DNA from: a bacterium
Lineage (GTDB): Bacteria > UBP15 > UBA6099 > JAJRTR01
Assembly (NCBI GenBank): GCA_024278215.1
Contig: JAJRTR010000073.1
Span: 1-55,970, forward strand
Length of the DNA: 55,970 nucleotides
Reading direction: 5' to 3'
Shown one piece after another: positions 17,108 to 44,680 of this stretch. The position numbers were made by a program, and so were the translations under genes. Under the pieces are notes generated by a model. That model was not told the DNA's origin, did no database searches, and saw nothing but the letters and a program-made list of their open reading frames with translations. Position 1 is the first letter of the stretch; each line of letters starts with the position of its first letter.

Positions 17108-17195
17108 AAAGTCGGCACCTCATCTCTTTATACAGGAAAAGCACAGGCAGACTGTCGACTGATTTTAATTCGTAGAGACGATAAATACAAATGTA

Positions 17196-17376
17196 GAGCC
17201 AATTGCAAAATCATGTTCGTAGCGAGGTCGAACGAAATTTTACAGAAGCAAGGCGGAGGTGCAAAATCCCCGCAGGCGTACTCGCCGAGTACGTTGAGGA
17301 AGATTTTGTGCTGACAACGCTGCTATGGACACAATTGCAACCGACCGCAGCCGAATCAGAATTTTGCAATTGGCTC
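17196..17376 (+). mobile_element. MITE-like palindromic element, copy 2
   Basis: 16-bp TIR GAGCCAATTGCAAAAT/ATTTTGCAATTGGCTC flanked by a TGTA direct repeat. Confidence 0.88.
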
Positions 17377-17492
17377 TGTATAATTTCAGATCATTGCAAC
17401 ATGGATTCACGTCGCCGGTGTGACATGAACACATGAAAACTGTGCTATAATTATATTAACCTGTAAAAAGGAATTTTACTTAAGTTCATTGC

Positions 17493-32278: not shown

Positions 32279-32758
32279 TCACACCGGTTCGAAGTGATCG
32301 ACATCAAGGATCGTGTTGGTTGTTTCATCGGCGAAAACGGCTTTGACTTTCATACCGAGCTCGACCTTGCCGGGCTCGATGCCTTCGAGTATGTGCGGCA
32401 GGGGAGTGTCCGCGCCCCCGAGTTTTATCATAGCGAGAATATATGGCGGCTTGCGCGGCAGGTGTTTGTCTTCGTAGTTGACCACAGTGTAGTTGGTGAG
32501 CTCGCCGGTGTCGGAGAGTTCGACCCAACTGTCGCTGAGGTCTTCCATGCAGCGTTCGCAACGCTGACGAGGCGGCACGAAAACCCTGTTGCATTTTTCG
32601 CATTTTACGCCAAGTATCTGCTTTTTGTCGCGCAGCGCGATCAGGAATCTGCTGCCGACGCGGCCCGCGAAATACTGATATGGAAGCGCCAGTTTGCCGT
32701 CTCTTATATAACAATGTTCGTGCTTGTCGTCTTTTTGTCTTAGTTTCTGTCTTGCCAT
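32279..32758 (-). CDS. DUF35 Zn-ribbon/OB-fold protein
   Basis: CEKC..VFVPPRQRCERC, GELTNYTVV, GMKVKAVF; GGAGG RBS. Confidence 0.9.
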   Translation of the reverse strand: MARQKLRQKDDKHEHCYIRDGKLALPYQYFAGRVGSRFLIALRDKKQILGVKCEKCNRVFVPPRQRCERCMEDLSDSWVELSDTGELTNYTVVNYEDKHLPRKPPYILAMIKLGGADTPLPHILEGIEPGKVELGMKVKAVFADETTNTILDVDHFEPV

Positions 32759-32769
32759 TTGCTGCCTCC

Positions 32770-33930
32770 TCATCTCACCTTTTCAAAATAGAGGATATCG
32801 TTGACGGAGCCGGTTCGCTCGTCCGCCCACACGGGCCTCACCCGGTCGCCGGGCTGCGCATCGAAAAGGTCGTTCTTCTTCAGCATGTGCCAGAAAGTTT
32901 CATTGTCTTTGCAACCGTCCAGCAGGACATGCAGGCTGCCGTAAGGTGTTTCACGTGTTTCGCCCGTCAGGGGGTCGGGGCTGGCATAGTATGTGTCGTC
33001 GATCATGGTGATCTCGCCCCCGGGGCCTACCTCGACAAACTCGTCCGCCCGGCACCTGCACGGCGCGCACACCTCGCGCGGCGGCAACTGTTTCCTGCCG
33101 CACTTCGGACACACGTTCGCCAGTATCTTCTTTTCCATCAGGCCTTCGAAAAACTGTCCCATCACAGGTCCGGTCGAGTATTCCATGTCGACTGAAATGA
33201 TCTTTTTCAGCACTATGAGTTCTTCGACCGCTTCCGCTTCTTCGGACGGTACAAATTTCGCGAAGATTTTGGGCAGTTTCATCGCGAGTTCCATATCGCC
33301 CACAAGCTTTAGTCTGCCCGAGCCGAAAGCGACCATCGGATCGAGTTTGCCCAGCATCAGATCGACGTAATCTTCAGCGCTGACGATGTTGCTGACCGTC
33401 AGGTTGTCGCGCAGGCCCTCTTCGAGCGTGCATTTGCCGTCCTTTATGACAGCGGTCCATTGGCCGCCGCCCTTGCCCGTGAAATCGTAGCCGACAGTAA
33501 CGTCGAGTTCCTGCGCGTACTGCGGCTGGAAGCGATCGACGGCTGTTTCGATGATGTCGCGTGCAGTGATGGGTTTTTTCGGCGGCACATATTTGGTGAA
33601 CATCTGCGGCAGCCTGAGCAGCATCGCCATGTCGCCTTCGGCCCTGACGCGGCCCGCCTGGAAAGCTTCCATGCCGTCGATGCGACCGACCGTCATGCCG
33701 ACGAAAGTTTCCGCGTCCGTAATCATTTTCGCAGTGAATTCGGCGGGGAGGCTGTCGAGTTTTTTAGTTTCGGACTTGCCGCCTCCGATGGCGACCATCC
33801 ATCGGCCGCCGCCGGCGCCGCTTATGTCATAGGCGATAACGGCGTCTACGCCTTCCGCGCCCTCGGGCCGGAACCGTTCCGTCTGTGTACTGAAAATATC
33901 ATCAACTGTAGTTCCGAAATATTCTGCCAT
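32770..33930 (-). CDS. SCP2-SCP2-DUF35 fusion protein
   Basis: Two SCP2 domains (GGGRW...AFQAGRVRAEGDM; GGGQW...AFGSGRLKLVGDM), then CPKC..LPPREVCAPC OB fold. Confidence 0.88.
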   Translation of the reverse strand: MAEYFGTTVDDIFSTQTERFRPEGAEGVDAVIAYDISGAGGGRWMVAIGGGKSETKKLDSLPAEFTAKMITDAETFVGMTVGRIDGMEAFQAGRVRAEGDMAMLLRLPQMFTKYVPPKKPITARDIIETAVDRFQPQYAQELDVTVGYDFTGKGGGQWTAVIKDGKCTLEEGLRDNLTVSNIVSAEDYVDLMLGKLDPMVAFGSGRLKLVGDMELAMKLPKIFAKFVPSEEAEAVEELIVLKKIISVDMEYSTGPVMGQFFEGLMEKKILANVCPKCGRKQLPPREVCAPCRCRADEFVEVGPGGEITMIDDTYYASPDPLTGETRETPYGSLHVLLDGCKDNETFWHMLKKNDLFDAQPGDRVRPVWADERTGSVNDILYFEKVR

Positions 33931-33940
33931 AGTATCCTCC

Positions 33941-35137
33941 TCACCAGTCCAGGTCTTTTTCGAGCATCGTGAGCACAGTCCAGAGAGTGCCGCCGAAACC
34001 CGAGGCCAGCGCGTGTTTCACTTCGCTGGGAATCTGATGTCCACCCGCGTCGCCGCGAATCTGTAGCGCGGCCTCGGCGACACGAACCATGGCCGTAGCG
34101 CCTATCGGGTTCGCGGCCACGACACCGCCGGATGGGTTCAACGGCAGCCTGCCGCCGATCTTCAACTCGTCGTTCTCGACCATCTTCAGATGTTCGTCGC
34201 CTTCGAGCAACATGAACTCGCGGAGCCAGTCGAGGCCCCACCAGGACGACGGGTCGTACATCTCGAACACATCGAAGTAATCGACCGGATTGTCGATGCC
34301 GTTGCGCTCGAACAACTTTCGCGCGGCGAAGCGGTGGGTCGTCTCTTCGCGTTCGGCGTCTTCTTTTCCGAAAAGATTGAATGTTTCTTCGCGATGTATC
34401 GTGATATGGTCGCGTATCCAGACGGGTTTGTCGCTCAGTTCCTTTGCCTTTTCTTCGGAGGCAAATATCATGGCGCAGGCACCGTCGCTCTGTGAGCACA
34501 TGTGAATGAGACGCAGTTCGCCGACGAGTTTGGGTGAATTCTCCATCAGGTCGTCGAGCTGGTCGTAGTCGAGACCGAAGCTGCGGTGCGAGTTCGGGTT
34601 GAGCATAGCGTGCTTATCCATGTCGATGCGAAGTTTCATCGCGGCGCGGCGTGCGCGTTCTTCGCCGAATTCGCGGATCATAGCGCCTGCGGTCGCGCCG
34701 GTGAGCGCGCCGGTCTGAAGGTTGCGGGACCATAGCGGATCGGCCATGTTCGTAATGCCGCCGGTCGTGTGGCCTTCCTGTAGTTTTTCGAAACCGACGG
34801 CGAGTACGATGTCGTACATGCCTGAGGCGACAAGGTTGTCCGCGGCGCATACGAGCGTGGCACCTGTCGTGCCGCCTGTCGTAACGCGGTATGCGTCCTT
34901 GCCGTATGCGCCGGTGCCGATTGTGTGCCACAGGTCCGGCTGGTGGACCATCTCGAATAGTTCCATGTTGCCGTGCACGACGCAGTCGATGTCGTCGTAG
35001 GTCAGGCCAGCGTCTTCGAGAGCGAACCGCACGGCTTCGTTTATCATTTCCGGTTGATTGACATCTTCGCGGTGGCTGGAGTACTGCGTCTGCCCGATGC
35101 CGATTATACCAACATTCCTGTTTCTCTTATGGCTCAA
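33941..35137 (-). CDS. Thiolase-fold protein, Ltp3-like (aldolase subunit candidate)
   Basis: GIGQT, RVTTGGTTG (no nucleophilic Cys), GFEK, SDGA, EMYDP, NPSGG..ANPIGAT. Confidence 0.8.
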   Translation of the reverse strand: MSHKRNRNVGIIGIGQTQYSSHREDVNQPEMINEAVRFALEDAGLTYDDIDCVVHGNMELFEMVHQPDLWHTIGTGAYGKDAYRVTTGGTTGATLVCAADNLVASGMYDIVLAVGFEKLQEGHTTGGITNMADPLWSRNLQTGALTGATAGAMIREFGEERARRAAMKLRIDMDKHAMLNPNSHRSFGLDYDQLDDLMENSPKLVGELRLIHMCSQSDGACAMIFASEEKAKELSDKPVWIRDHITIHREETFNLFGKEDAEREETTHRFAARKLFERNGIDNPVDYFDVFEMYDPSSWWGLDWLREFMLLEGDEHLKMVENDELKIGGRLPLNPSGGVVAANPIGATAMVRVAEAALQIRGDAGGHQIPSEVKHALASGFGGTLWTVLTMLEKDLDW

Positions 35138-35150
35138 TGTGTGACCTCCT

Positions 35151-36299
35151 TTACTCGGAATCGAGAACGAGCACGGAATGGAATTGGCCGGCCGCGCCGG
35201 TCGTCCCGTGAGCGAGGGCTTTCTTAGCGCCTTCGACCTGCCGGTCGCCGGCTTCGCCGCGGAGTTGTATTACGGCTTCAGCGGCGCGGGCGAGACCGCC
35301 TATCATCAGTGGGTTGCCCGCAAGCATGCCGCCCGATTTGTTCACGTTGCATGTTTTGAGTCCGCCGCCGTCGATCAGGGCGCTGCCTTTGCCTTCGCCG
35401 CACAGTCCGAGTCCTTCGAGCCACATCGGCGTCTGGTAAGCGAAGCAGTCGTTGACTTCCACGAGGTCGAACTCCTCGGCGGGGTTCTTCACGCCTGCTT
35501 TCCTGTAAGCGCGTTCGGCGGCTTTTTTCAGCGAGAAGTTACCGACGAGGTCTTTGTCGCCGAGGAAATAGCTGTCCATGCAGTTGGCGAAACCGCTGAT
35601 CCAGACCGGTTTATCTGTGAATTCCGAGGCGCGCTCTTCGCACACGAGCAGCATGGCGACAGCGCCGTCTGAGACCGGGTATTCATGAAGAAGGCGGATG
35701 GGATCGCACGTCATCGGCGATTTAAGCACCTGCTCTTCGGTCAGCAATTCCCTGGCGTTCGCCGCCGGGTTGAGGGCGGCGTTTTTCCTTGAGTTGACGA
35801 CCACCTTCGCGAGGTGCTCGTCGGTGACACCGGATTTGTTCATATAGGCGCGAGCCTGGAGCGCGGCGACATTCTTAAAGTCCAGTCCCAGCGGCCTGTA
35901 GTAGAACGGATCGAAAGCCAGGTTTGTGACCATATCGCGGCTTTCGGACTGCGATTCCTTGCAGTGGCCGACTATCAGAATGATATCGTCGTGACCCGAC
36001 AACACGCAGGCGAGCCCGTAGCCGATGGCGTTTATTCCATCCATCGTTACCTTCTCTTCGCCCCTGTAATGAGCGCCGACAGCATCGGTCATAGCGTTGT
36101 CGGAGATAGTGCGGGCGTCGAAAACATCGTCCGAGCATGTGATAATATTCCTTATACCGGTGGCCATGTCGAAAGTGACGCCGGTTTTCCGGATTATCGG
36201 TTCCACGATGTCGAACGCCATCTCCTGGAAGCGCTTTTGCCACAGATTGGTGAAGAAACCAGTCTGTTCGACAGCGCAGACAGCAACACGTTTTCCCAT
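35151..36299 (-). CDS. Thiolase-fold protein, Ltp4-like
   Basis: CSDDVFDARTIS, KVTMDG, PVSDGA, NKSGGMLAGNPLMIGGL. Confidence 0.78.
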   Translation of the reverse strand: MGKRVAVCAVEQTGFFTNLWQKRFQEMAFDIVEPIIRKTGVTFDMATGIRNIITCSDDVFDARTISDNAMTDAVGAHYRGEEKVTMDGINAIGYGLACVLSGHDDIILIVGHCKESQSESRDMVTNLAFDPFYYRPLGLDFKNVAALQARAYMNKSGVTDEHLAKVVVNSRKNAALNPAANARELLTEEQVLKSPMTCDPIRLLHEYPVSDGAVAMLLVCEERASEFTDKPVWISGFANCMDSYFLGDKDLVGNFSLKKAAERAYRKAGVKNPAEEFDLVEVNDCFAYQTPMWLEGLGLCGEGKGSALIDGGGLKTCNVNKSGGMLAGNPLMIGGLARAAEAVIQLRGEAGDRQVEGAKKALAHGTTGAAGQFHSVLVLDSE

Positions 36300-36403
36300 T
36301 CGTTTACCTCCTGTCGTTATTAAGCATCTATTTTATAATCAATATCTCAATTCCGTTATGTGTCGGCCCTGATCGCCGCCATGCTGTGTGATTATAACAC
36401 TAT

Positions 36404-36955
36404 TTACCGCGCGAAGCAGTTCCAGAAGCGGCCTTTTTTTATGGCGCGGATAATAGAGTCCTTGTTGCGTTTGCAGTCCATCTCGATCCAGGCGCGACCA
36501 CAGCCGGCGCGTGTGTGTGAATCGTCCACGACCAGTTTTGGATATTTTATCTCCGGCGTGTCGAATTCCTTATCGAGAAAACCCTTGGTTGTTATCTCGA
36601 CAGCGTCGAGAGGATAGCGTTTTTCCAGCGCGTGGAGCCGGTCCATAATCTGCTCGAACGACAGGTCGTATTCGCCGAGATGGCAGAAGACGTGAAGCTG
36701 CTCTTCGTCGCCGAAAATCTGGGTTACATGAACGTAGCCTTTCTCGAAAACCGTATGCTCGATGCCCCGAAAAATTATCAAGTCGGTTTCCACAGCATCG
36801 AAAATCCGCTCGTGTGCGGGTTTCAGGAGATAGTCATGATCGGTGAAAGCGATAAAATCGAAACCGAGTTCCGAATAGACATCGGCGACCTGTTGGGGCG
36901 TCAGTTTCCCATCCGAGCAGGTAGTGTGGCAGTGGAGACCGCCTTTCAGTATCAT
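36404..36955 (-). CDS. Short PHP-domain metallophosphoesterase
   Basis: [22 protein letters not shown]. Confidence 0.85.
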
Positions 36956-37141
36956 TTATAAATCTCCGTGGTACAGCATAAGTGTTATCAGTCGCTGTAG
37001 GGCGACCGCGAGATAATGCACATTATAGTACTTATAAGGAAATAAAATGAAGAGAATAAGTGATAATTTTCACTAAGTTGCGTTTTCGCAATAATATTTT
37101 ACAACTTTGATGTGATTTCCGGCTTGTGTGAATTCTGTTAT

Positions 37142-37319
37142 GAGCCAATTGCAAAATTATGTTCGTAGCGAGGTCGAGCGAAATTGTTCAGAGCAAGGCG
37201 GAGGTGTAAAATCCTCGCAGGCGTACTTGTAGAGTACGTCGAGGGCGATTTTGCGCCGGCAACGCAGCTATGGACAATAGCAGCCGACCACAGCAGAATC
37301 AGAATTTTGCAATTGGCTC
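37142..37319 (+). mobile_element. MITE-like palindromic element, copy 4
   Basis: Perfect 17-bp TIR GAGCCAATTGCAAAATT/AATTTTGCAATTGGCTC flanked by a TTAT direct repeat. Confidence 0.9.
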
Positions 37320-37492
37320 TTATGTGTGAGGATTTCTATGACATGGTTGAAATTCAATTCTCGAATGGATTTCAGTCCTGGATTTAAACTGATTATGTGT
37401 GGTTGCGATTCCTTTTACCACCGCAAATAGTTGTGCTATTATAAAGTGACTGATTTCATGCGGTTACAATTTCCGAAAGGAATAATATTCTG

Positions 37493-40400
37493 ATGACGGA
37501 TGAGCAGAGAAATTTCGCGGAATACAATCGCCCGGAGCTGGCGAAGCTGCTGACGGCCTTGAGGCTGGATGTGGAATATGTGCGGGGGCGTGGCGATTAT
37601 CTTTATTACAAGAACGAAAAAGGTGAAGAAGTCGAAGTGCTGGACCTCGCGGGCGGCATGGGGTCGACCGTGCTCGGACACAACAATCCCGAGATAAAAG
37701 AAGTCATGCAATCATGTATCGACAACGATGTGCCTATGCACGCGCAGGGTTCGTTTCGCGAGTCGGCCGGCAGGCTGGGCAGGAAGCTGTCCGAGCTGTA
37801 TCCCGGCAAGGAAAAGCGGGTCACGATTCTATGCAATTCCGGCACCGAAGCGGTCGAGTGCGCGCTCAAACACGCAGAGTTCAACCGCATGTTGCGGTTC
37901 CGGGAGATCGGCAGGGACATCTACCGTAATTATAAGGAGATGAAAGAATATTTCAGGATGCACTCGAACCTGAAACTGCCGAAAAAATATGCTGAAAAGG
38001 GCGCTGAGGCGCTGCTCAACGATATCCTTCTCCAGACACAGGTGCTCGAACAACTGCCGCCGGTAGTGATCTCGACAGAGAAATCGTTCCACGGGAAAAC
38101 CACCGGGGCGCTGCGTGTTACAGGCAGCACGATGTACCGCGAAGCGTTCCAGCGACTCAGCGGCATCGACGCGAGATTCATCGAATTCAACAACCTCGAC
38201 GATCTGAAAAAAGTACTCGAAAAGAGCTATTTCACTATAAAGAAGATCACAGTGGACGACGGCGTTGTGAAACTTGTCGGCCGCCGGTACCTGAACGTGA
38301 CGGCGTTTATAATGGAGCTGATACAGGGCGAGGGCGGCATAAATGTCGCTACGCGCGATTTCGTGCGCGGCATTGTTAAACTGCGCAAGCAACACGGCTT
38401 CGAATGGATCGTCGACGAGATACAGACGGGCCTTGGCCGCACGGGAAAACTTTTCTGCATCGAGAATTATGCCGTAGACAAAGACGCGGTCGATTACATG
38501 GTGTTGTCGAAGGCGCTGGGCGGCGCCACGCACAAAGTAGGCGCTATGCTCGTGCGTGAGTCGATACACAACAGCCGGTTCGGCATCCTGCACACTTCAA
38601 CATTCGCCGAGGACTCACCCGGTTGCATGGTTGCCCTCAAGGCACTCGAGATCACTACGGCCAACAAAGGCGAGGCATTCAGGATGGCCGCCGAAAAAGG
38701 CAACTACATGAAGGCGAAGCTCAAGGAGATAAAAAAGGAATACCCGGACATTATCAGGGAAGTGCGCGGCATGGGACTGATGATCGGGGTCGATTTCCAT
38801 ATCTTCAAAGAAAGCAATTCGCTGTTCTTCAACCGGTGCAGCAAGCAGGGCGTTTTCGCATCGGTTCTCGCGGGCTACCTTCTGCACGAGCACAGAATCC
38901 GCACAGCGCCGCCGCTCAATTCGCTTGTCGCGGCCCGACCGATGAATGTATTGCGCATCGAGCCGTCGGTTTATATTTCCCGCAAGGATATGGACCGTGT
39001 GATATTCGCTATACGGCGCGCCTGCAAGATCGTCCGCAGGGCCAACGCCTACGAATTCAGCAAGTTTGTAATCGGCAAAGAGACGCCCGGCAAGTACGGC
39101 AGGATAGAAGACTACTCCGGTCCGGCATACAAGCCGCCCGTCGATCCGGAATTCGAGAAATGCCGCCGGATGGCTTTCCTTATCCACCCGCTGGACATCC
39201 ACCAGGTGATGGAGGACTTTGACAGGTCTCTGAGCGGATTCTCCAGGGAGAAGGACCCGGAGACGGGACTGAGCGAACGCGAACGTTACTGGGACATCAT
39301 CGTACCGCTGCTCGATTCGTTTGTGTTCAGAGTCGTACATGTGAAATCGCCGCGAACGGGCGACAGGGTCAAAGCCCATTTCATCGGGTTCCTCTACACG
39401 ACGCAACAGATGGTGAAACTTCGCAAAACCAACCCGGAAGTCCTGATCGAGGGCATACAGAAGGCCGTCGACCTGGGCGCGAGCCTGGGCGCGGAAGTAT
39501 GCGGGCTCGGCGCTTTCACTTCGATCGTAACACACAACGGCACGGATATGGACGATACATACATCAATATCACGAGCGGCAATTCGTACACGGCCGCGCT
39601 GGTGTGGCAGAGTGTGCTCAAGGCGGCGGATTATGCCGGTCTGAAACTCGACGAGTGTACGGGCGCAGTGGTCGGAGCGGGCGGCAACATAGGCAGTGTT
39701 TGCGCAAGCCTGCTGTCCGAGGACATACCACGTCTGTTGCTGATAGGCAGCAGAAAATCGCAGACGGTCGACAGGCTTCGCGAAGTCGCTTATTCCATCT
39801 ATTCTGACAGTGTCGACATAATCCGCACAGCCCGCCCGCAGGACCTCAAGGGCCTCCCGGCCGCGCTCGCCCGGGACCTCGTGCTGCCGTTCGCCGCTCT
39901 TAACTCCCGGGAATACCGCTTCAAAGAAAAAGCGATTAACAATTTTATCGAAAAAAATTATTCGGGCAAAGACCAGAAAATCGGACACCTTGTGAAATCT
40001 ATTTTCTACTCGCGTCCCGATTCCGACATTGGCCGCAAGGTCTACCAGGCTATTCAGCTCAAGCACGGGACCGATCCTTATATCACACTGACAACCAACC
40101 TGAAAAGATATATTCCGCAGGCCGACGTGATCATTTCCGCCGTAAGTGCCGACAGGTCCATCATGGATGTGAAGTGGTTCAAGCCCGGCGCGGTTGTGAA
40201 CGACGCGAGCCTGCCGCCAAGCATATCGACTCAGCTCTACAAAGAACGCCCCGACGTGATCGCCACGCAGGGCGGGGTCGGCCACCTGCCCGAGTACATC
40301 AACCTCGGCATACCAGGACTCGCCGCAGGCGCCACTCTCGGATGTATGGCCGAAACATTCATCCTGACAATGATGCACATGGCCGACAACTACAGCTTCG

Positions 40401-40543
40401 GCAGAATCACAAAACAGCAGGTTGTGAAAATATGGGAGGCCGGCAAAATCCTCGGATTCGGCATCGCAGCAATCAAATATATGGGTAACAAAAAACTCAC
40501 ACGAGACATAGCCGCGGAAATTATGCGCAAATCAGAAAAGTGA
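37493..40543 (+). CDS. Class III aminotransferase fused to an acyl-thioester reductase (TamH-like fatty-amine synthase candidate)
   Basis: NSGTEAVE, SFHGKT, ELIQGEGG, DEIQTGLGRTG, LSKALGG; then FLIHPL, GLGAFTSIV, TSGNSYT, VVGAGGNIG, GCMAET. Confidence 0.85.
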   Translation: MTDEQRNFAEYNRPELAKLLTALRLDVEYVRGRGDYLYYKNEKGEEVEVLDLAGGMGSTVLGHNNPEIKEVMQSCIDNDVPMHAQGSFRESAGRLGRKLSELYPGKEKRVTILCNSGTEAVECALKHAEFNRMLRFREIGRDIYRNYKEMKEYFRMHSNLKLPKKYAEKGAEALLNDILLQTQVLEQLPPVVISTEKSFHGKTTGALRVTGSTMYREAFQRLSGIDARFIEFNNLDDLKKVLEKSYFTIKKITVDDGVVKLVGRRYLNVTAFIMELIQGEGGINVATRDFVRGIVKLRKQHGFEWIVDEIQTGLGRTGKLFCIENYAVDKDAVDYMVLSKALGGATHKVGAMLVRESIHNSRFGILHTSTFAEDSPGCMVALKALEITTANKGEAFRMAAEKGNYMKAKLKEIKKEYPDIIREVRGMGLMIGVDFHIFKESNSLFFNRCSKQGVFASVLAGYLLHEHRIRTAPPLNSLVAARPMNVLRIEPSVYISRKDMDRVIFAIRRACKIVRRANAYEFSKFVIGKETPGKYGRIEDYSGPAYKPPVDPEFEKCRRMAFLIHPLDIHQVMEDFDRSLSGFSREKDPETGLSERERYWDIIVPLLDSFVFRVVHVKSPRTGDRVKAHFIGFLYTTQQMVKLRKTNPEVLIEGIQKAVDLGASLGAEVCGLGAFTSIVTHNGTDMDDTYINITSGNSYTAALVWQSVLKAADYAGLKLDECTGAVVGAGGNIGSVCASLLSEDIPRLLLIGSRKSQTVDRLREVAYSIYSDSVDIIRTARPQDLKGLPAALARDLVLPFAALNSREYRFKEKAINNFIEKNYSGKDQKIGHLVKSIFYSRPDSDIGRKVYQAIQLKHGTDPYITLTTNLKRYIPQADVIISAVSADRSIMDVKWFKPGAVVNDASLPPSISTQLYKERPDVIATQGGVGHLPEYINLGIPGLAAGATLGCMAETFILTMMHMADNYSFGRITKQQVVKIWEAGKILGFGIAAIKYMGNKKLTRDIAAEIMRKSEK

Positions 40544-40627
40544 ATGTGTCGCGAAAAACAGGAATCAGGCACTTAGGCCGATTTTCGCAACAACCGCCTG
40601 TCGCTTACGGCAGACCAAGGAATTAAA

Positions 40628-42250
40628 GTGAGTCCCGACTGCACTACAGATTCAAGGTCAAATTTCTCGACAGCATACCTCGTCGCCTTCTTCATATTCT
40701 TCGCGGCTTTCTATGCGCTATTCGTTCGCGGCATACCTCCGAACGGCGACCCGGTCAATTATTTTGTTGTCGCTCAGAACCTTGTGGAAACCGGCACGTT
40801 CGGAATGGAAAAGAATCAGTACGTGCCGCTCGAGCAAGGGCGGGACGGGGCGTATTACTCGAAGTTCGCGCCCGGTCAATCTCTTCTCGAAGCACCTTTT
40901 TACGCACTCGGCAGGATGGTAGCGCCGTCAACTGATGATCAACGTTATCTCTACGCATTCAAATATTTTGTCTCTGTTTTGTGTGTGCCGCCGGTGTCCG
41001 CGCTCACACTTATTTTTTTCATGTTGACGATTCAACTGCTGGGTTATGATCGGCGCACCGCGATCCTTTCGACTTTGCTGCTCGGACTCGGCACAATGAT
41101 GTGGCCTTATGCCAGACTCGGTTTCAGCGAACCGCTTCAGGCCTGCGCGATTGCGGCGGGTTTCTACTATTCGACACGTGCGAGAAGAGAGGGGAGTTTG
41201 ACTGCGGCGGCTTTTGCCGGTGCCGCGATAGGGATGCTTCTGCTGACAAAAGTGTCGGCGGCAATTGTAGCGCCCGGATTCGCTTTGTATCTCATTACGG
41301 GAGCACACGGCCAGAAAAAAAGGTTCAGAGCCGCGATGCTGTTTTCGCTTGTTTTTCTCATTTTTCTATGCCTTTCTCTTGCATACAACCAGTTGCGATT
41401 CGGCGAACTGTTGAATTTCGGGTATTTCAGCGGCAAAGATGCCTCATTCGGCTTTAATGTAAACTGCCTGTCCGGTTTATACGGATTCCTGTTCAGTCCT
41501 GGAAAGAGTATATTCCTGTACGCGCCTGCCGTGTTGCTGTCGTTGTGGGGCGCGCGGCGGCTGCAAAGCGATCATGGCGATGTGAGCACACTTGTATGGT
41601 TCTGCGTGGCGTCGCACCTGGCGGTGTACTGCCGCTGGTGGGCGTGGCACGGCGACTGGAGCTGGGGGCCTCGCTTTCTTGTGCCGCTCATGCCGCTGCT
41701 TATGATACCTGCCGCCGCCCTGGTTGCGACCTTAAAAGAATCTGTTTTTATCCACAGATTCGCATTCATCACGATTGTTGTCGTTTCGTTTTTCATACAG
41801 ACGCTCGGCGTCGCGGTTAATCCTTATGAATACATTATGATCACACGTCACCAGGTGCCCCATGGACCGTTTTTCACACCTGGCCGCGAGGACCTGCGCG
41901 ACGACCAGACCGGCATTCACTTTGTCCCGGATTTCTCACCTGTTGCCGGCCACTGGTGGCTTCTGAAACATACAATAACCGGCGCGGGCCGGACAGCAGA
42001 GCAACAGCGTGCCGCGATGCAGAAAGATTTTCCGTGGCGCGGGCTGATGCGCTATGCCGTGCCGCCGCACCCGGAGCGCGGCGCGGTATTCGATTTCTGG
42101 TGGGTTTATTTTCCCGAATATTTCCCCGAGTCGACAACGTGGGTGAAAGTGTTTCTGATGTCTTTGCTCTTTATGGTTATTACTGTCCCGCTATTCGGAT
42201 TTATCGCGAAAAGGAGAGCGAATAAGTTTGCATCGGAAATCGAGCCGTGA
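40628..42250 (+). CDS. GT-C fold membrane glycosyltransferase (ArnT/PMT-like)
   Basis: Many TM helices; N-terminal loop Asp (GDPVNY), YSKF.PGQS, FSEP, WHGDWSWGPRFL. Confidence 0.7.
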   Translation: MSPDCTTDSRSNFSTAYLVAFFIFFAAFYALFVRGIPPNGDPVNYFVVAQNLVETGTFGMEKNQYVPLEQGRDGAYYSKFAPGQSLLEAPFYALGRMVAPSTDDQRYLYAFKYFVSVLCVPPVSALTLIFFMLTIQLLGYDRRTAILSTLLLGLGTMMWPYARLGFSEPLQACAIAAGFYYSTRARREGSLTAAAFAGAAIGMLLLTKVSAAIVAPGFALYLITGAHGQKKRFRAAMLFSLVFLIFLCLSLAYNQLRFGELLNFGYFSGKDASFGFNVNCLSGLYGFLFSPGKSIFLYAPAVLLSLWGARRLQSDHGDVSTLVWFCVASHLAVYCRWWAWHGDWSWGPRFLVPLMPLLMIPAAALVATLKESVFIHRFAFITIVVVSFFIQTLGVAVNPYEYIMITRHQVPHGPFFTPGREDLRDDQTGIHFVPDFSPVAGHWWLLKHTITGAGRTAEQQRAAMQKDFPWRGLMRYAVPPHPERGAVFDFWWVYFPEYFPESTTWVKVFLMSLLFMVITVPLFGFIAKRRANKFASEIEP

Positions 42251-42308: not shown

Positions 42309-43508
42309 TTACCGTTTATAAAATGAAACTATGCGCGTCAGCGCGTCCACGACATCCTGCACGTCGCGTCGCGTCATTTTAGGGAACAGGGGCAGTGTGA
42401 TAATCGATTCGCTGATCTCTTCGCAGACAGGAAAATCTTCACGCTTCAAATTCAGCGCGCGCTCGAAATACGAATGCCTGTATATCGGCCTGTAATGGAT
42501 ATTGGCATAAATATTTTCCGTACGCAACGCTGAAAGCACCCTGTCGCGGTCCACCCGCAACGCGCCCGGCGTGATGCGAATCACATACAGGTGATGTGAC
42601 GATTTCGAGCCGGGCGTCAGGACCGGTTTTATCAATTCGTCGACACCCGAAAACGCCTCATTGTAGAAATCGACATAAGAAGCTCTTAGCCTGTTGAACT
42701 CATTGATTTTGCCGAGCTGCACGAGCCCTATTGCCGCGCAGATATCCGGCATGTTGCACTTGAATCCGGGCGCGGAGACATCGTACTGCCATGGTTTATC
42801 GCTGTCCGCGCGGCTGTAGGCGTCATTATCTATCCCGAAGAAACTCAGCGCCTTCGCCTTCGATGCGAGTCCGGCGTCATCCGTTGTGATCATGCCGCCT
42901 TCGACGCTTGTCATATTCTTTATCGCATGAAAACTGAAACATGTCATGTCTCCGAAAGTGCCTATCCTTCGTCCCCTGTACTCTGCGCCGACTGCGTGAG
43001 CGCCGTCCTCGATCACCTTCAATCCGTGCTGTTTCGCGATGGCCGTAATATCGTCCATATCGGCGGGATTACCGGCATAATGCACCGGGATAATCGCCTT
43101 CGTTTTTCCCGTTATCTTTTTCTCAATCGAAGCCGGATCGATATTGTATGTGTCCATCTTTATATCCGCGAGCACAGGCGTCGCACCGCTATAAATGATT
43201 GATAAAACCGTGGCGGCAAATGTCAGAGGAGTCGTAATCACCTCGTCGCCCGGTCCGACGCCGAGAGCTGCTACAGACACAGTGAGCGCGCCGGTGCATG
43301 AGTTCAAGCCCACCGCATACTTCGCGCCGACATAACCGGCGAAGGCATCCTGAAACTCGGCGGTTCGCGGTCCGGTTGTTATCCACACGGACTTCAGCGT
43401 CTCGACAACGGCAGCGATCTCTTCCTCGCCGATCCACTGCGTTGCATAAGGAAGCGGTTCAGTGCGAACGGGCGTTCCGCCCTCGATTGCGGGTTTATCT
43501 ATAGCCAT
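42309..43508 (-). CDS. DegT/DnrJ/EryC1/StrS nucleotide-sugar aminotransferase (SpsC/PseC/ArnB-like)
   Basis: WITTGP, NSCTGAL, PVHYAG, EDGAHA, FSFHAIKNMTSVEGG, LPLFP. Confidence 0.93.
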   Translation of the reverse strand: MAIDKPAIEGGTPVRTEPLPYATQWIGEEEIAAVVETLKSVWITTGPRTAEFQDAFAGYVGAKYAVGLNSCTGALTVSVAALGVGPGDEVITTPLTFAATVLSIIYSGATPVLADIKMDTYNIDPASIEKKITGKTKAIIPVHYAGNPADMDDITAIAKQHGLKVIEDGAHAVGAEYRGRRIGTFGDMTCFSFHAIKNMTSVEGGMITTDDAGLASKAKALSFFGIDNDAYSRADSDKPWQYDVSAPGFKCNMPDICAAIGLVQLGKINEFNRLRASYVDFYNEAFSGVDELIKPVLTPGSKSSHHLYVIRITPGALRVDRDRVLSALRTENIYANIHYRPIYRHSYFERALNLKREDFPVCEEISESIITLPLFPKMTRRDVQDVVDALTRIVSFYKR

Positions 43509-44488
43509 TTGGAATTCTTCTCAGCAATAAGTTTTTCGAGCCACTTTCTTGTGCGCCCAAGTCCGTCTTCGATATCGACGCGGGGTCTCCATCCAAGTAC
43601 TTTCTGCGCTGCGGAACTGTCCCCGCACAGCTTCATTATTTCACTCTGAGGATGTATGTGCTTTATTCGCCTGATCTTCGAGCCTGTTTTATCGGGTGCC
43701 GAATCGACGACTGTACGCGCAAGTTTATTTATAGTAATATCGCTGCCCGTGGCGGCGTTCAGAGTGCGCCCCCACACCTTGCCCGACGTCGACGCGCGTA
43801 GCAGGAAATCGGCGCAGTCTTCGACATACAGCAAATCTCGTGTCTGGTGTCCCGTCCCATATATAAGGAGGTCTTCACCCCTGATCTGGCGAGTTAGAAA
43901 GATCGAAACCACCCCACCCTCACCCGTCGCCTTCTGGTGTGGTCCATACGTGTTGAACGGCCTTAGCACCGCAGTCGGCATACCATAGGCATGATAATAA
44001 GAAATCGTCATGTTTTCACCAGCCAGCTTCGCGCCCGCATAAGGCGAACGAGGCAGCACAGGATGCGTTTCATCTATCGCGCCTTCCGGCTTCGACAGAT
44101 CATATACCATGCACGTGCTCATGAAAACGAACTTCGTTCCTGCCGCACGACACGCTTCGAGCAGATAAAATGTGCCGTCCACATCCGACTCGAACGTCCG
44201 CACGGGATCGTCAATACTGTCCTGGACGACTATCTGAGCCGCAAGATGCAGGCAGATATCCGGCTTGATCTTCGCAACGAGGCCCCCCACCATTTTTCTC
44301 TGGCGTATGCTGCCTTTCTTCACTTCGGCAAGTCGAGGTTCATTCGCGAATTCCGCAAGATTCTCACGCAGTCCGTTCGAGAAATCATCAAGGACATATA
44401 CCCTGTGCGGCGTATCGTCGAGAAACGCTTTGACGACCCACCTGCCGATGAAGCCCGCTCCGCCTGTTATAAGTACGTTTTTTTTCAT
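43499..44488 (-). CDS. NAD-dependent nucleotide-sugar epimerase/dehydratase
   Basis: ITGGAGFIG, HLAAQ, STCMVY, YAGAK, RPFNTYGP. Confidence 0.92.
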   Translation of the reverse strand: MKKNVLITGGAGFIGRWVVKAFLDDTPHRVYVLDDFSNGLRENLAEFANEPRLAEVKKGSIRQRKMVGGLVAKIKPDICLHLAAQIVVQDSIDDPVRTFESDVDGTFYLLEACRAAGTKFVFMSTCMVYDLSKPEGAIDETHPVLPRSPYAGAKLAGENMTISYYHAYGMPTAVLRPFNTYGPHQKATGEGGVVSIFLTRQIRGEDLLIYGTGHQTRDLLYVEDCADFLLRASTSGKVWGRTLNAATGSDITINKLARTVVDSAPDKTGSKIRRIKHIHPQSEIMKLCGDSSAAQKVLGWRPRVDIEDGLGRTRKWLEKLIAEKNSKWL

Positions 44489-44680
44489 AACGCTATTCCA
44501 GAAAAACCGAATGTATTTGCGCACGCACAGAAAAACCCAAATACCACGCATTCTTTAATATCGGCCATTATGCCCGGTTTATGAAATATCACGGAAAAAA
44601 AGATTGCACTGTGCTAAAATACATAATCGTGAAATCCTTGCCTGTGAATCGCACCGGCTGAACGGTTTGGGGATATCGAC

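What the first reader, a model, noticed from the sequence alone, without database searches (positions are those of the whole stretch)
37493..42250. Stand-alone TamH-like fatty-amine synthase next to a GT-C glycosyltransferase: candidate unknown amino-lipid pathway
Seen: the 1016-aa protein joins a complete class III (omega) aminotransferase (PLP Lys in LSKALGG) to a domain with the hallmarks of cyanobacterial acyl-ACP reductase (FLIHP, LGAFTSIV, TSGN, GAGGNIG, Cys in GCMAE). Known: this architecture (TamH of tambjamine biosynthesis) converts acyl-thioester to aldehyde to long-chain amine. No pyrrole, NRPS or PKS genes are in this window. The co-oriented downstream gene is a lipid-phosphate-sugar-dependent GT-C enzyme, and an amino-sugar pair (epimerase + DegT) converges on it. 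Inference: the organism may make long-chain alkylamines for an undescribed N-alkyl or glycosylated membrane lipid or metabolite.
Basis: partly seen in the sequence, partly recalled or inferred. Interest (0 to 1): 0.7.

Follow-up and report, generated by a model that had tools for sequence, protein, structure and literature searches.

The report
Transaminase–thioester reductase fusion beside glycosyltransferase
This gene encodes a two-part enzyme of a known type that should turn an activated fatty acid into an amine; almost every sampled member of an uncultured bacterial phylum has it, but its tie to the neighbouring sugar-transferase gene holds only in its closest relatives.

Summary
ORF 37493-40543 (+) encodes a 1016-aa protein. 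Its N-terminal half is a complete class III transaminase (PLP Lys340). Its C-terminal half is an acyl-ACP-reductase-like thioester reductase (GAGGNIG, Cys951). This is the PtTamH architecture. The reductase groups with AAR and PigE by sequence and fold, not with shikimate or semialdehyde dehydrogenases. No PKS, NRPS, pyrrole, ANL or ACP gene lies in the window.

New here:
- The gene is found in 11 of 13 held genomes of an isolated one-order phylum, in 10 of 10 genera, and its neighbours vary.
- The architecture is common: 89 of the 150 best cluster representatives are TA-TR.
- The GT-C neighbour is kept only in the window's own subclade. It was seen directly in one metagenome contig and inferred from matching contig lengths in three more.
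- The GT-C is missing beside all 12 homologue loci from the 10 related genomes that carry the gene. Two genomes have the GT-C orthologue but no fusion.
- The DegT/dehydratase pair is conserved nowhere.

The chemistry (thioester to aldehyde to amine) is well supported by homology. A dedicated glyco-aminolipid pathway is only weakly supported.

The scan had already reported this genome's paralogue, which sits beside a glycyl radical enzyme (e1-916755, e1-916754). I rate this a new member of a known kind, of moderate interest.

The parts
37414..37442 (+). sigma-70-like promoter match with an extended -10 (TG), about 50 bp upstream of the start codon
   Evidence: Consensus scan, 9 of 12 matches. 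This is weak evidence only: 14 sites were found in the region against 7.8 expected.
37493..40543 (+). 1016-aa bifunctional transaminase-thioester reductase (TamH-type TA-TR), protein P0001
   Evidence: AlphaFold model pLDDT 88.8, pTM 0.81.
37493..39070 (+). N-terminal class III (omega) transaminase domain, about residues 1-526, including the CrmG-type extra helices and hairpin
   Evidence: Pfam PF00202 E 3.8e-63. PDB CrmG 5dds E 2.3e-69. Foldseek CrmG TMt 0.91-0.93 over about 512 residues.
38510..38512 (+). codon of Lys340, the PLP Schiff-base lysine (LSKALGG)
   Evidence: Invariant in 20 of 20 family members. Position. Corresponds to K340 of PtTamH as named in PMC9594044.
39158..40540 (+). 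C-terminal AAR-like thioester reductase domain, about residues 556-1016, with a 111-residue helical insert at about 752-862
   Evidence: NCBIfam PigE 4.4e-33 and AAR 2.5e-16. PDB hits. Foldseek AAR 6jzy/6jzz TMt 0.79-0.81. Insert lengths across the family.
39674..39694 (+). GAGGNIG nucleotide-binding motif (GxxGxxG), residues 728-734
   Evidence: G728 and G731 invariant, G734 at least 90% conserved in alignment A1. Position.
40343..40345 (+). codon of Cys951, the predicted acyl-accepting catalytic cysteine (GCMAE)
   Evidence: Aligns with the Cys of AAR FACFAE and PigE GCMAE. Invariant in 22 of 22 TR-domain sequences of A2 and at least 90% conserved in A1.
40544..40627 (+). 84-bp spacer between the two genes, with an AAGGA ribosome-binding-like site 5 nt before the GTG start
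   Evidence: Sequence read. No + strand terminator-like or promoter-like site in the spacer. Co-transcription is inferred, not shown.
40628..42250 (+). 540-aa GT-C-type (PMT_2 / GT39-like) membrane glycosyltransferase candidate, protein P0002
   Evidence: Pfam PMT_2 E 1.9e-4, below cut-off; NCBIfam LA_3751/LA_3752 family E 6.5e-10, below cut-off. Asp41 and Glu168 at least 90% conserved in 20 homologues. Atlas neighbours PMT_2/PMT/RgtA-D-like at score 0.99. No sequence relative in the PDB.
42309..43508 (-). DegT-family sugar aminotransferase (context only; the linkage is not conserved)
   Evidence: Pfam PF01041 E 3.3e-123. NCBIfam PseC 1.3e-115 and ArnB-type 4.1e-113, both below cut-off. Absent beside 9 of 9 GT-C homologue loci.
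43499..44551 (-). NDP-sugar 4,6-dehydratase/epimerase (context only; the linkage is not conserved)
   Evidence: Pfam GDP_Man_Dehyd/Epimerase. NCBIfam dTDP-glucose 4,6-dehydratase 2.8e-52, below cut-off. Absent beside 9 of 9 GT-C homologue loci.

Best explanation
The 1016-aa protein is a TamH-type bifunctional enzyme. The C-terminal AAR-like domain takes an acyl group from a phosphopantetheine thioester (acyl-ACP or acyl-CoA) onto Cys951. It then reduces the acyl group with NAD(P)H, bound at GAGGNIG, to an aldehyde. The N-terminal class III transaminase (PLP on Lys340) converts that aldehyde into a primary amine, using an amino acid as donor.

Unlike TamH and PigE, the gene is not part of a pigment or antibiotic cluster. 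It is the orthologue kept in nearly all sampled genomes of an isolated, uncultured, apparently anaerobic phylum, usually as a single gene with changing neighbours. This points to a lineage-wide, probably lipid- or envelope-related, use of the amine.

No dedicated ANL-ACP loader is encoded nearby, so the acyl donor is most likely the general acyl-ACP or acyl-CoA pool. In the window's own subclade the gene is followed by, and probably co-transcribed with, a GT-C glycosyltransferase.

Shown: the domain identities, the catalytic residues, the fold, the distribution and the gene order. Inferred: the direction of the reaction, the chain length of the substrate, and the fate of the amine.
For: Fold:
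- TA matches CrmG with TMt 0.91-0.93.
- TR matches AAR with TMt 0.79-0.81.

Precedent: PtTamH has the same order of domains, a GxxGxxG motif and a catalytic Cys. It makes C12 amine from acyl-TamA with NADH and L-Glu (PMC9594044, passages read). PigE also both reduces a thioester and transaminates (abstract of PMC8341465 in the listing).

Family context pointing to activated fatty acids:
- In Kangiella locus L025 the homologue lies between two AMP-binding genes, an ACP, a reductase and an MMPL exporter.
- Six clusters, P0079-P0084, fuse AMP-binding with TA and TR.

Distribution and evolution:
- The TR domain is found in 11 of 13 genomes of the phylum and in 10 of 10 genera.
- The main clade of the quick tree roughly follows the genome families.
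- Neighbours vary across 12 loci.

G000 has only two stand-alone carrier proteins, and neither is next to an ANL gene.

There is no terminator-like site in the 84-bp gap before the GT-C.
Against: - No activity was measured, and PtTamH itself was not compared directly because its sequence was not in hand.
- The protein is at most about 35% identical to any relative outside its phylum, so substrate and direction may differ.
- PtTamH did not accept C12-CoA and needed its own ANL-ACP partner. No such partner was found in this window or genome.
- The AAR superfamily also holds the carmabin TAD, for which a non-reductive amidation is proposed.
- Two genomes of the phylum lack the gene: G007 (92% complete) and G009 (67% complete). 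It is therefore not strictly essential.
- The chain length of the substrate rests only on analogy and on distant contexts.
Confidence: 0.6

Rival explanations
1. First reader's full proposal. The amine made by the fusion is handed to the GT-C enzyme, with the DegT/dehydratase pair supplying an amino sugar, to build an undescribed N-alkyl or glycosylated amino-lipid of the envelope.
For: - The pair TA-TR then GT-C is co-oriented with an 84-bp gap that has no terminator-like site.
- The same pair, with 69% and 51% identity, is adjacent in metagenome contig L105 although both flanks differ.
- Three more subclade members (P0004, P0006, P0007) share contig length and source label with GT-C homologues P0108, P0109 and P0112. 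That these are the same contigs is inferred.
- Other envelope-lipid genes recur beside homologues: Lnt in L015 and L019, a DUF368 undecaprenyl-phosphate translocase-like gene in L026, and MMPL in L025.
Against: - None of the 12 homologue loci from 10 related genomes has a GT-C, DegT or epimerase homologue. Nine of the 12 have at least 2 kb of DNA on the downstream side.
- The GT-C orthologues of those genomes (38-48% identity) lie on other contigs.
- G007 and G009 have the GT-C orthologue but no fusion, and G004 has two fusions but no GT-C match.
- Of 14 GT-C clusters at 46% identity or more, 10 share no contig length with a fusion cluster. Two of those 10 are on contigs too short to tell.
- DegT and the dehydratase are beside none of the 9 GT-C homologue loci.
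- I know of no GT-C enzyme that glycosylates a free alkylamine. This is from recall and was not searched.
Confidence: 0.15
2. The enzyme works in the catabolic direction. The transaminase turns a primary amine (an alkylamine, polyamine or omega-amino acid) into an aldehyde. The AAR-like domain then oxidises it on Cys951 to a thioester that is passed to CoA, which would save energy for an anaerobe.
For:
- The paralogue follows a glycyl radical enzyme and its activase and precedes an MFS transporter, which looks like a substrate-use operon.
- The window gene faces a thiolase/SCP2/DUF35 operon.
- The closest non-pathway transaminases are putrescine and acetylornithine transaminases.
- The thioester/aldehyde step is chemically reversible (established chemistry of acylating aldehyde dehydrogenases; my inference for this family).
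Against: - Both characterised fusions (TamH, PigE) and AAR act reductively.
- The thiolase operon is not conserved beside any homologue.
- No amine transporter or regulator is conserved beside the main-clade gene.
Confidence: 0.12
3. The chemistry is the same, but the substrate is a non-fatty or functionalised thioester (for example a keto-acyl intermediate as in PigE). The product would then be a small amine or cyclic imine metabolite rather than a long-chain amine.
For: - The best NCBIfam hit is PigE, whose substrate is a branched keto-thioester.
- Neighbours of distant homologues are heterogeneous: DapB, pantothenate kinase, B12-radical-SAM and complex-I-type genes.
- The family is large and mostly uncharacterised.
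Against: - No gene for making such a thioester (PigD-like, PKS, NRPS) is in the window.
- One concrete version was tested and dropped: a malonyl-thioester to beta-alanine route. G000 has PanD next to PanC.
Confidence: 0.1
4. The C-terminal domain acts like the carmabin terminal amidation domain (TAD) and gives an amide, not an aldehyde. The transaminase domain would serve as the nitrogen source.
For: The TAD structures (9e4s, 9e56 and others) are the second-best fold matches, with TMt 0.64-0.70 and E about 1e-15. The nitrogen source of TAD is unknown (preprint 10.1101/2024.10.28.620694, sections 5 and 8 read).
Against: - AAR matches better in fold (TMt 0.79-0.81) and in sequence. PigE and AAR models hit, and no TAD chain appears in the PDB sequence search.
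- A fused aldehyde-type transaminase closest to CrmG and PigE fits an aldehyde intermediate.
- The TAD authors found no consistently co-occurring partner.
Confidence: 0.03

Closest known systems
PtTamH (Pseudoalteromonas tunicata, tambjamine YP1 pathway; PMC9594044)
   Same: One polypeptide with an N-terminal class III transaminase (PLP Lys, numbered K340 in both) followed by an AAR-like thioester reductase with GxxGxxG and a catalytic Cys. The predicted reaction is acyl-thioester to aldehyde to primary amine.
   Different: - 1016 aa against 941 aa.
- No tambjamine or bipyrrole genes and no TamA-type ANL-ACP partner in the window or genome.
- Conserved across a phylum rather than confined to a biosynthetic cluster.
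- A longer helical insert in the reductase.
- No direct sequence comparison with PtTamH was made.
PigE (Serratia prodigiosin MAP pathway; NCBIfam NF053554, PDB 4ppm)
   Same: Both domains are homologous. PigE is the best NCBIfam hit (E 1.5e-102 for the whole protein; E 4.4e-33 for the reductase part alone), and GCMAE is shared around the catalytic Cys.
   Different: The domain order is reversed (PigE is TR then TA). The score of 344.5 bits is far below the 850-bit cut-off. PigE acts on a keto-thioester inside a pigment cluster.
Cyanobacterial acyl-ACP reductase AAR (TIGR04058; PDB 6jzq/6jzy)
   Same: It is the best fold match of the C-terminal domain (TMt 0.79-0.81, E 2.6e-17). The catalytic Cys and the nucleotide motif align.
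   Different: AAR is a stand-alone protein of about 340 aa that works with the aldehyde-deformylating oxygenase. Here the score is 59.9 bits against a 449.7-bit cut-off. The domain is fused to a transaminase and has a 111-residue insert where stand-alone relatives have about 20.
CrmG (caerulomycin aldehyde transaminase; PDB 5dds)
   Same: It is the best sequence and fold match of the N-terminal domain: E 2.3e-69, and TMt 0.91-0.93 over about 512 residues, covering the whole extended domain.
   Different: CrmG is a stand-alone enzyme of a bipyridine antibiotic pathway. Identity is about 30%.
CarI terminal amidation domain, TAD (carmabin pathway; PDB 9e4s; preprint 10.1101/2024.10.28.620694)
   Same: It belongs to the AAR superfamily, has an invariant Cys next to NAD(H), and is the second-best fold match.
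   Different: TAD sits at NRPS C-termini and has a macrodomain-type N-terminal subdomain. The fold match is weaker (TMt 0.64-0.70), and the PDB sequence search gave no TAD hit.
PMT_2 / GT39-GT83-type GT-C glycosyltransferases (ArnT, RgtA-D, protein O-mannosyltransferases), for the neighbour P0002
   Same: Similar length, a weak PMT_2 match, and a conserved acidic residue near the N-terminus (Asp41). The nearest Atlas clusters carry PMT_2/PMT and an RgtA-D-like name.
   Different: Both curated cut-offs are missed. There is no sequence relative in the PDB. The acceptor and the sugar are unknown. There are five paralogues in this genome.

Membership tests
TamH-type TA-TR bifunctional enzymes | N-terminal class III PLP transaminase with the Schiff-base lysine | tested here: met
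   PF00202 E 3.8e-63. Lys340 invariant in 20 of 20 sequences. CrmG fold match TMt 0.91-0.93.
TamH-type TA-TR bifunctional enzymes | C-terminal AAR-like thioester reductase with GxxGxxG and a catalytic cysteine | tested here: met
   GAGGNIG at 728-734 and Cys951. The Cys is invariant in 22 of 22 sequences.
TamH-type TA-TR bifunctional enzymes | Order TA then TR in one polypeptide | tested here: met
   Single ORF. Domain limits. One confident model. Of the 150 best TR-domain representatives, 89 share this order.
TamH-type TA-TR bifunctional enzymes | Dedicated ANL-ACP acyl donor (TamA-like) encoded with it | tested here: not met
   No AMP-binding or PP-binding gene among the 26 window ORFs scanned. 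G000 has two stand-alone ACPs, and neither is beside an ANL gene.
TamH-type TA-TR bifunctional enzymes | Location in a tambjamine/prodiginine gene cluster | tested here: not met
   The neighbours are housekeeping or unrelated genes.
TamH-type TA-TR bifunctional enzymes | Direct sequence relatedness to PtTamH itself | not tested
Relatedness is inferred through PigE, AAR and CrmG. The paper's supplementary alignments were not seen.
TamH-type TA-TR bifunctional enzymes | Acyl-ACP plus NAD(P)H plus amino donor gives a primary amine | not testable with these tools
   This needs an enzyme assay.
PigE (NF053554 equivalog) | Score above the curated cut-off and order TR then TA | tested here: not met
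   344.5 bits against an 850-bit cut-off. The transaminase part matches model positions 506-728 while lying N-terminal here.
Cyanobacterial AAR (TIGR04058 equivalog) | Score above the curated cut-off; stand-alone protein of about 340 aa | tested here: not met
   59.9 bits against a 449.7-bit cut-off. Here the domain is fused.
   Shikimate_DH scores E 2.1e-4 over 50 residues only, below cut-off. Foldseek gives E about 1e-3 and TMt 0.35-0.43, against 2.6e-17 and 0.79-0.81 for AAR.
GT-C glycosyltransferases (PMT_2 type), for P0002 | Pfam or NCBIfam match above the curated cut-off | tested here: not met
   PMT_2 22.1 bits against 26.1. LA_3751/LA_3752 family 38.4 bits against 200. The L105 orthologue scores 25.9 bits.
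GT-C glycosyltransferases (PMT_2 type), for P0002 | Conserved acidic residue in the first loop and a family-like profile | tested here: inconclusive
   Asp41 and Glu168 are at least 90% conserved. Atlas neighbours carry PMT_2/PMT on only 10-20% of their members. More distant homologues carry PF13231/PF02366. Membrane topology was not computed, and there is no PDB relative by sequence.

The most novel reading that the evidence does not exclude
An entire uncultured, one-order bacterial phylum makes primary (fatty) amines as part of its core metabolism, using a TamH-type enzyme fed directly from the general acyl-ACP/CoA pool. In one family-level subclade the amine, or a lipid built from it, is the acceptor of the co-transcribed GT-C glycosyltransferase. 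That would give a new class of amine-based envelope glycolipid.
Probability: 0.15. Interest if true: 0.7.

Novelty: new member of a known kind. Interest (0 to 1): 0.4.

Why it matters
Only two enzymes of this fusion type (TamH and PigE) have been characterised, and both come from pigment or antibiotic clusters.

This work shows two things:
- The TA-TR architecture is common: 89 of the 150 nearest cluster representatives have it.
- One deep branch is kept throughout a whole uncultured phylum, outside any biosynthetic cluster, sometimes in two paralogues.

This suggests that making an amine from a thioester has a physiological, probably lipid-related, role that nobody has described. If the substrate is ordinary acyl-ACP or acyl-CoA, the enzyme would also be a partner-independent fatty-amine biocatalyst, which TamH is not.

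The proposed link to a glycosyltransferase is only lineage-specific, so it should be taken as a lead, not as a pathway.

Tried and rejected
1. Beta-alanine route (malonyl-thioester to malonate semialdehyde to beta-alanine). I considered this because a distant split homologue follows pantothenate kinase in L031. I dropped it because G000 has PanD adjacent to PanC.
2. Small ORFs (77-80 aa) just upstream of the gene in L017, L020 and L023 were checked as possible carrier proteins. By eye their sequences are low-complexity or Cys-rich and unlike ACPs.
3. A regulatory RNA in the 537-bp upstream spacer. Rfam gave no match at gathering score over the whole window, and none at E up to 1 over 36900-37550.
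4. The genome-contig scan with the family alignment chose generic transaminase motifs. About 5 of the 80 loci it returned were full-length relatives.
5. The metagenome scan returned one locus, L105.
6. Sequencing runs: none was listed, and no RNA holder was listed.
8. The careful tree search did not finish in two 300-s runs. The quick IQ-TREE tree is used instead.
9. A profile of the GT-C family found no solved structure by sequence.
10. I did not analyse the acyl pocket or predict ACP docking.

Full report
**1. The observation**

The + strand ORF 37493-40543 is open and encodes 1016 residues.
- LSKALGG at residues 338-344 (Lys340)
- FLIHP at 562-566
- LGAFTSIV at 672-679
- TSGN at 694-697
- GAGGNIG at 728-734
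- GCMAE at 950-954 (Cys951)

Pfam finds a full class III aminotransferase domain over residues 27-475 (E 3.8e-63). The closest solved proteins are the aldehyde transaminase CrmG (E 2.3e-69) and PigE (E 2.8e-55).

The last 486 residues, searched alone, hit four targets:
- the reductase part of the NCBIfam PigE model (E 4.4e-33)
- the cyanobacterial acyl-ACP reductase model TIGR04058 (E 2.5e-16)
- PDB PigE 4ppm (3.1e-17)
- PDB AAR 6jzq (1.8e-9)

In the printed alignments Cys951 lies opposite the Cys of AAR 'FACFAE' and of PigE 'GCMAE'. All of these scores are far below the equivalog cut-offs. The protein is therefore a relative of PigE and AAR, not a member of either family.

**2. Fold**

A model of the whole protein is confident (pLDDT 88.8, pTM 0.81). 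Its N-terminal half superposes on CrmG with TMt 0.91-0.93 over about 512 residues.

A separate model of the C-terminal domain (pLDDT 89.0) matches these structures:
- best, AAR structures 6jzy, 6jzu and 6jzz (E 2.6e-17, TMt 0.79-0.81)
- next, the AAR-related terminal amidation domain of the carmabin pathway (TMt 0.64-0.70)
- shikimate dehydrogenases only at E about 1e-3 and TMt 0.35-0.43

It does not occur.

The reductase carries a 111-residue helical insert at about residues 752-862. Its length varies across the family:
- about 20 residues in stand-alone AAR-like proteins
- 47-86 in many TA-TR proteins
- 101 in a Gemmatimonadota/Planctomycetota-type group

The insert is therefore not unique to this protein.

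**3. Conservation of catalytic residues**

In an alignment of 20 family members:
- Lys340, Asp308 and Glu309 are invariant.
- G728 and G731 of the nucleotide motif are invariant, as is Glu954.
- Cys951 is conserved in at least 90% of the sequences.

In a second alignment of 22 reductase domains, which includes stand-alone relatives, the Cys is invariant.

**4. What is known**

PtTamH is described as an N-terminal omega-transaminase (K340) fused to a C-terminal AAR-like thioester reductase (GxxGxxG, Cys887). It converts C12 acyl carried on the ANL-ACP protein TamA into C12 amine with NADH and L-Glu, and it did not accept C12-CoA (PMC9594044, passages read). A 2025 preprint restates this (10.1101/2025.08.11.669332, passages read).

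PigE was shown to reduce a thioester as well as transaminate (abstract of PMC8341465 in the listing).

The carmabin TAD is an AAR relative with an invariant Cys, for which amidation is proposed (10.1101/2024.10.28.620694; abstract and sections 5 and 8 read).

I did not see any supplementary files. The TamH alignments in the supplement of PMC9594044 could sharpen the comparison.

**5. How common the architecture is**

An exhaustive search with the reductase domain found 2162 cluster representatives at E up to 1e-3, of which 1374 were at E up to 1e-10 and 124 at E up to 1e-30.

All of the window's close relatives collapse into one 50%-identity cluster, represented by P0023 at 61% identity. The next-best full-length relative is only 34% identical.

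The 150 best representatives divide as follows:

| Architecture | Count |
|---|---|
| TA then TR, up to 1150 aa | 76 |
| TA-TR inside longer multidomain proteins | 13 |
| Reductase only, up to 520 aa | 45 |
| Reductase with something else | 16 |

Six clusters fuse an AMP-binding domain to TA and TR (P0079-P0084). So the fusion is widespread, and this protein belongs to a deep, isolated branch of it.

**6. Distribution in the lineage**

The window is contig C43 of genome G000 (4.55 Mb, 95% complete). The 'phylum' scope holds only 13 genomes, all in one order, spanning 4 families and 10 genera.

The reductase domain is found in 11 of the 13 genomes and in all 10 genera. It is missing only from G007 (92% complete) and G009 (67% complete), both in a genus where two other genomes have it.

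The quick IQ-TREE tree (SH-aLRT support; the careful search did not finish) has 37 rows, after six exact duplicates were removed from 43. It splits the lineage's proteins into two clades:
- A main clade of 27 rows that broadly follows the genome families.
- A paralogue clade of 5 rows (support 100). This includes G000's second copy at C151:85248-88283, which is 58% identical.

The window's protein belongs to a six-member subclade with support 98: the window, P0003, P0004, L105 (identical to P0005), P0006 and P0007.

**7. Neighbours**

In the window:
- Upstream, across a 537-bp spacer, a divergent operon encodes a PHP-domain protein, two thiolase-like proteins, an SCP2/zinc-ribbon protein and a DUF35 protein.
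- Downstream lies the GT-C gene.
- Beyond that, converging on the GT-C gene, lie a DegT aminotransferase and an NDP-sugar 4,6-dehydratase/epimerase.

No PKS, NRPS, pyrrole, AMP-binding or carrier-protein gene was found among the 26 window ORFs scanned.

I fetched 12 loci around homologues from the 10 related genomes that carry the gene, plus G000's paralogue. I then searched them with 17 window proteins by tblastn (E up to 1e-5, at least 30% coverage). Only the fusion itself matched.

Clustering all 167 ORFs found only three recurring neighbour groups:
- A glycyl radical enzyme, found with the three paralogue copies (L013, L021, L022).
- Its activase, found in two of them (L013, L022).
- An Lnt-type N-acyltransferase, found beside two main-clade copies (L015, L019).

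Nine of the 12 loci have at least 2 kb of DNA on the side where the GT-C would lie.

**8. The GT-C link**

The one metagenome locus recovered is L105, whose fusion is 69% identical. It has a GT-C homologue (51% identity over 476 residues) directly downstream and co-oriented. Its flanks differ from the window's: a DHDPS-like fragment and an unknown ORF lie upstream, and an arabinofuranosidase lies downstream.

Contig lengths recorded with the protein clusters give indirect evidence. Each fusion/GT-C pair below has the same source label:

| Fusion cluster | GT-C cluster | Shared contig length (bp) |
|---|---|---|
| P0004 | P0108 | 42,819 |
| P0005 | P0114 | 7,882 (this is L105) |
| P0006 | P0109 | 6,896 |
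| P0007 | P0112 | 8,324 |

That these are the same contigs is inferred, except for L105. The contig of P0003 (3,241 bp) is too short to tell. Within the subclade, then, the pair holds in the window and in all four other informative members.

The evidence against a general link is as follows:
- The best GT-C orthologues in G003, G006, G007, G009, G010, G011 and G012 (42-48% identity) lie on contigs other than those of the fusion. The same holds for the GT-C homologues of G001, G002 and G005 (38-40% identity).
- None of the 9 GT-C homologue loci examined, other than L105, has the fusion.
- G007 and G009 have the GT-C orthologue but no fusion.
- G004 (78% complete) has two fusions but no GT-C match.
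- Of 14 GT-C clusters at 46% identity or more, 10 share no contig length with a fusion cluster. Two of those 10 are on contigs under 2.3 kb.
- DegT and the dehydratase are beside none of the 9 loci.

In the window the 84-bp gap has an AAGGA site before the GTG start and no terminator-like or promoter-like site on the + strand. Co-transcription is plausible but not shown.

**9. The GT-C protein itself**

- The PMT_2 match is below cut-off: 22.1 bits against 26.1 in the window protein, and 25.9 bits in the L105 orthologue.
- The NCBIfam LA_3751/LA_3752 match is below cut-off.
- A family profile finds no solved structure by sequence.
- More distant homologues carry PF13231/PF02366 and are named phospholipid-carrier-dependent or family 39 glycosyltransferases by their sources.
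- Asp41 and Glu168 are at least 90% conserved.
- The nearest Atlas clusters carry PMT_2/PMT on 10-20% of their members, and one is named RgtA-D-like.

GT-C membership is probable. G000 has five matches to this protein.

**10. Where the acyl group could come from**

G000 has only two detectable carrier proteins, both small stand-alone ORFs. One is followed by RNase III and the other by an HMGL-like gene and a phosphotransacylase. Neither is beside an ANL gene.

In the wider family the partners do point to activated fatty acids. The Kangiella locus L025 reads AMP-binding, TA-TR, AMP-binding, ACP, ferredoxin reductase, MMPL exporter.

Other distant loci are heterogeneous:
- L026 has a DUF368 undecaprenyl-phosphate translocase-like gene and DapB.
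- L028 has two B12-radical-SAM genes and a FemAB-like gene.
- L027 has complex-I/hydrogenase genes.
- L031 has pantothenate kinase followed by split TA and TR genes.

**11. Explanation**

The best-supported reading is the TamH mechanism. An acyl group is transferred to Cys951 and reduced by hydride to an aldehyde. The aldehyde is then transaminated on the Lys340-PLP site to a primary amine. In this lineage the acyl group is probably drawn from the general acyl-ACP or acyl-CoA pool, and the enzyme serves a lineage-wide function (confidence 0.6).

The other rivals are:
- a catabolic direction from amine to acyl-CoA (0.12)
- a non-fatty or PigE-like substrate (0.10)
- TAD-like amidation (0.03)

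A beta-alanine route was tested and dropped because PanD and PanC are present.

**12. Relation to earlier notes of the scan**

Notes e1-916755 and e1-916754 already described this genome's paralogue as a TA-TR fusion in an operon with a glycyl radical enzyme.

I confirmed the operon: a PFL-like glycyl radical enzyme of 990 aa, a radical-SAM activase of 300 aa, then the fusion. It recurs in two other genomes. I could not confirm the reported SCP2 domain with Pfam.

**13. Verdict**

The enzyme is a new, deep-branching member of a known kind. The stand-alone, phylum-wide conservation and the subclade-specific pairing with a GT-C gene are the new elements. The amino-lipid pathway is a lead that needs an assay.

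Noticed in passing
L013 4277-11305 (= G000:C151, about 81276-88304); also L021 and L022: G000's paralogue of the fusion (58% identical) lies directly after a 990-aa PFL-like glycyl radical enzyme. NCBIfam places that enzyme in the PFL2/glycerol-dehydratase subfamily, with HypD as the best named hit, below cut-off. A 300-aa radical-SAM activase follows the radical enzyme in L013 and L022, and an MFS transporter lies downstream in L013. The radical enzyme plus fusion recurs in G004 and G008. Earlier notes e1-916754/5 call the radical enzyme SCP2-fused. Pfam found nothing in its first 210 residues.
   Followed up: partly
L015 11442-12926 (-) and L019 6225-7814 (-): An Lnt-type apolipoprotein N-acyltransferase (LNT_N + CN_hydrolase) lies next to the main-clade fusion in two genomes of different families. 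In L015 it is co-oriented and upstream. In L019 it is divergent.
   Followed up: no
L014 8200-9606 (+); L028 10531-13343 (+): B12-binding radical-SAM genes flank the fusion both in a genome of this phylum (G006) and in a distant Pyrinomonadaceae homologue locus. In the latter, two of them and a FemAB-like gene follow the fusion.
   Followed up: no
L025 6323-16581 (Kangiella taiwanensis): A tidy candidate fatty-amine cluster: AMP-binding, TA-TR (995 aa), AMP-binding, ACP, Fer2/FAD reductase, MMPL exporter.
   Followed up: partly
L031 7121-10755: In an unclassified MAG the transaminase and reductase are separate genes with a 146-aa ORF between them, directly after type III pantothenate kinase. 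This prompted the beta-alanine idea, which was rejected for G000.
   Followed up: partly
L026 7141-11474 (Limnochordia MAG): An 891-aa homologue is preceded by a DUF368 (undecaprenyl-phosphate translocase-like) gene and followed by DapB.
   Followed up: no
proteins P0097, P0099, P0100: Natural fusions of a YfhO-type (PF09586) membrane protein with a class III aminotransferase, 804-1281 aa. This is a possible Rosetta-stone link between such transaminases and large membrane glycosyltransferase-like proteins.
   Followed up: no
protein P0086: A 1067-aa homologue from the chytrid fungus Spizellomyces punctatus carries Aminotran_3 plus a semialdehyde-dehydrogenase NAD-binding domain (PF01118). This is a eukaryotic protein with an analogous layout.
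   Followed up: no
window 32279-36955 (-): An operon divergent from the fusion: a PHP-domain protein, two SCP-x-type thiolase-like proteins, an SCP2 + ChsH2 zinc-ribbon protein and a DUF35 OB-fold protein. This is the set typical of thiolase/lipid-transfer complexes. It is not conserved beside any homologue.
   Followed up: partly
window 36956-37492: An unusually long (537 bp) AT-rich spacer lies upstream of the fusion gene. It has no Rfam match.
   Followed up: partly
window 13691-25865: A 2790-aa protein with 19 FG-GAP-like repeats and an fn3 domain (+ strand). Divergently transcribed upstream of it, on the - strand, is a 1138-aa peptidase C25 (gingipain family) with TPR repeats.
   Followed up: no
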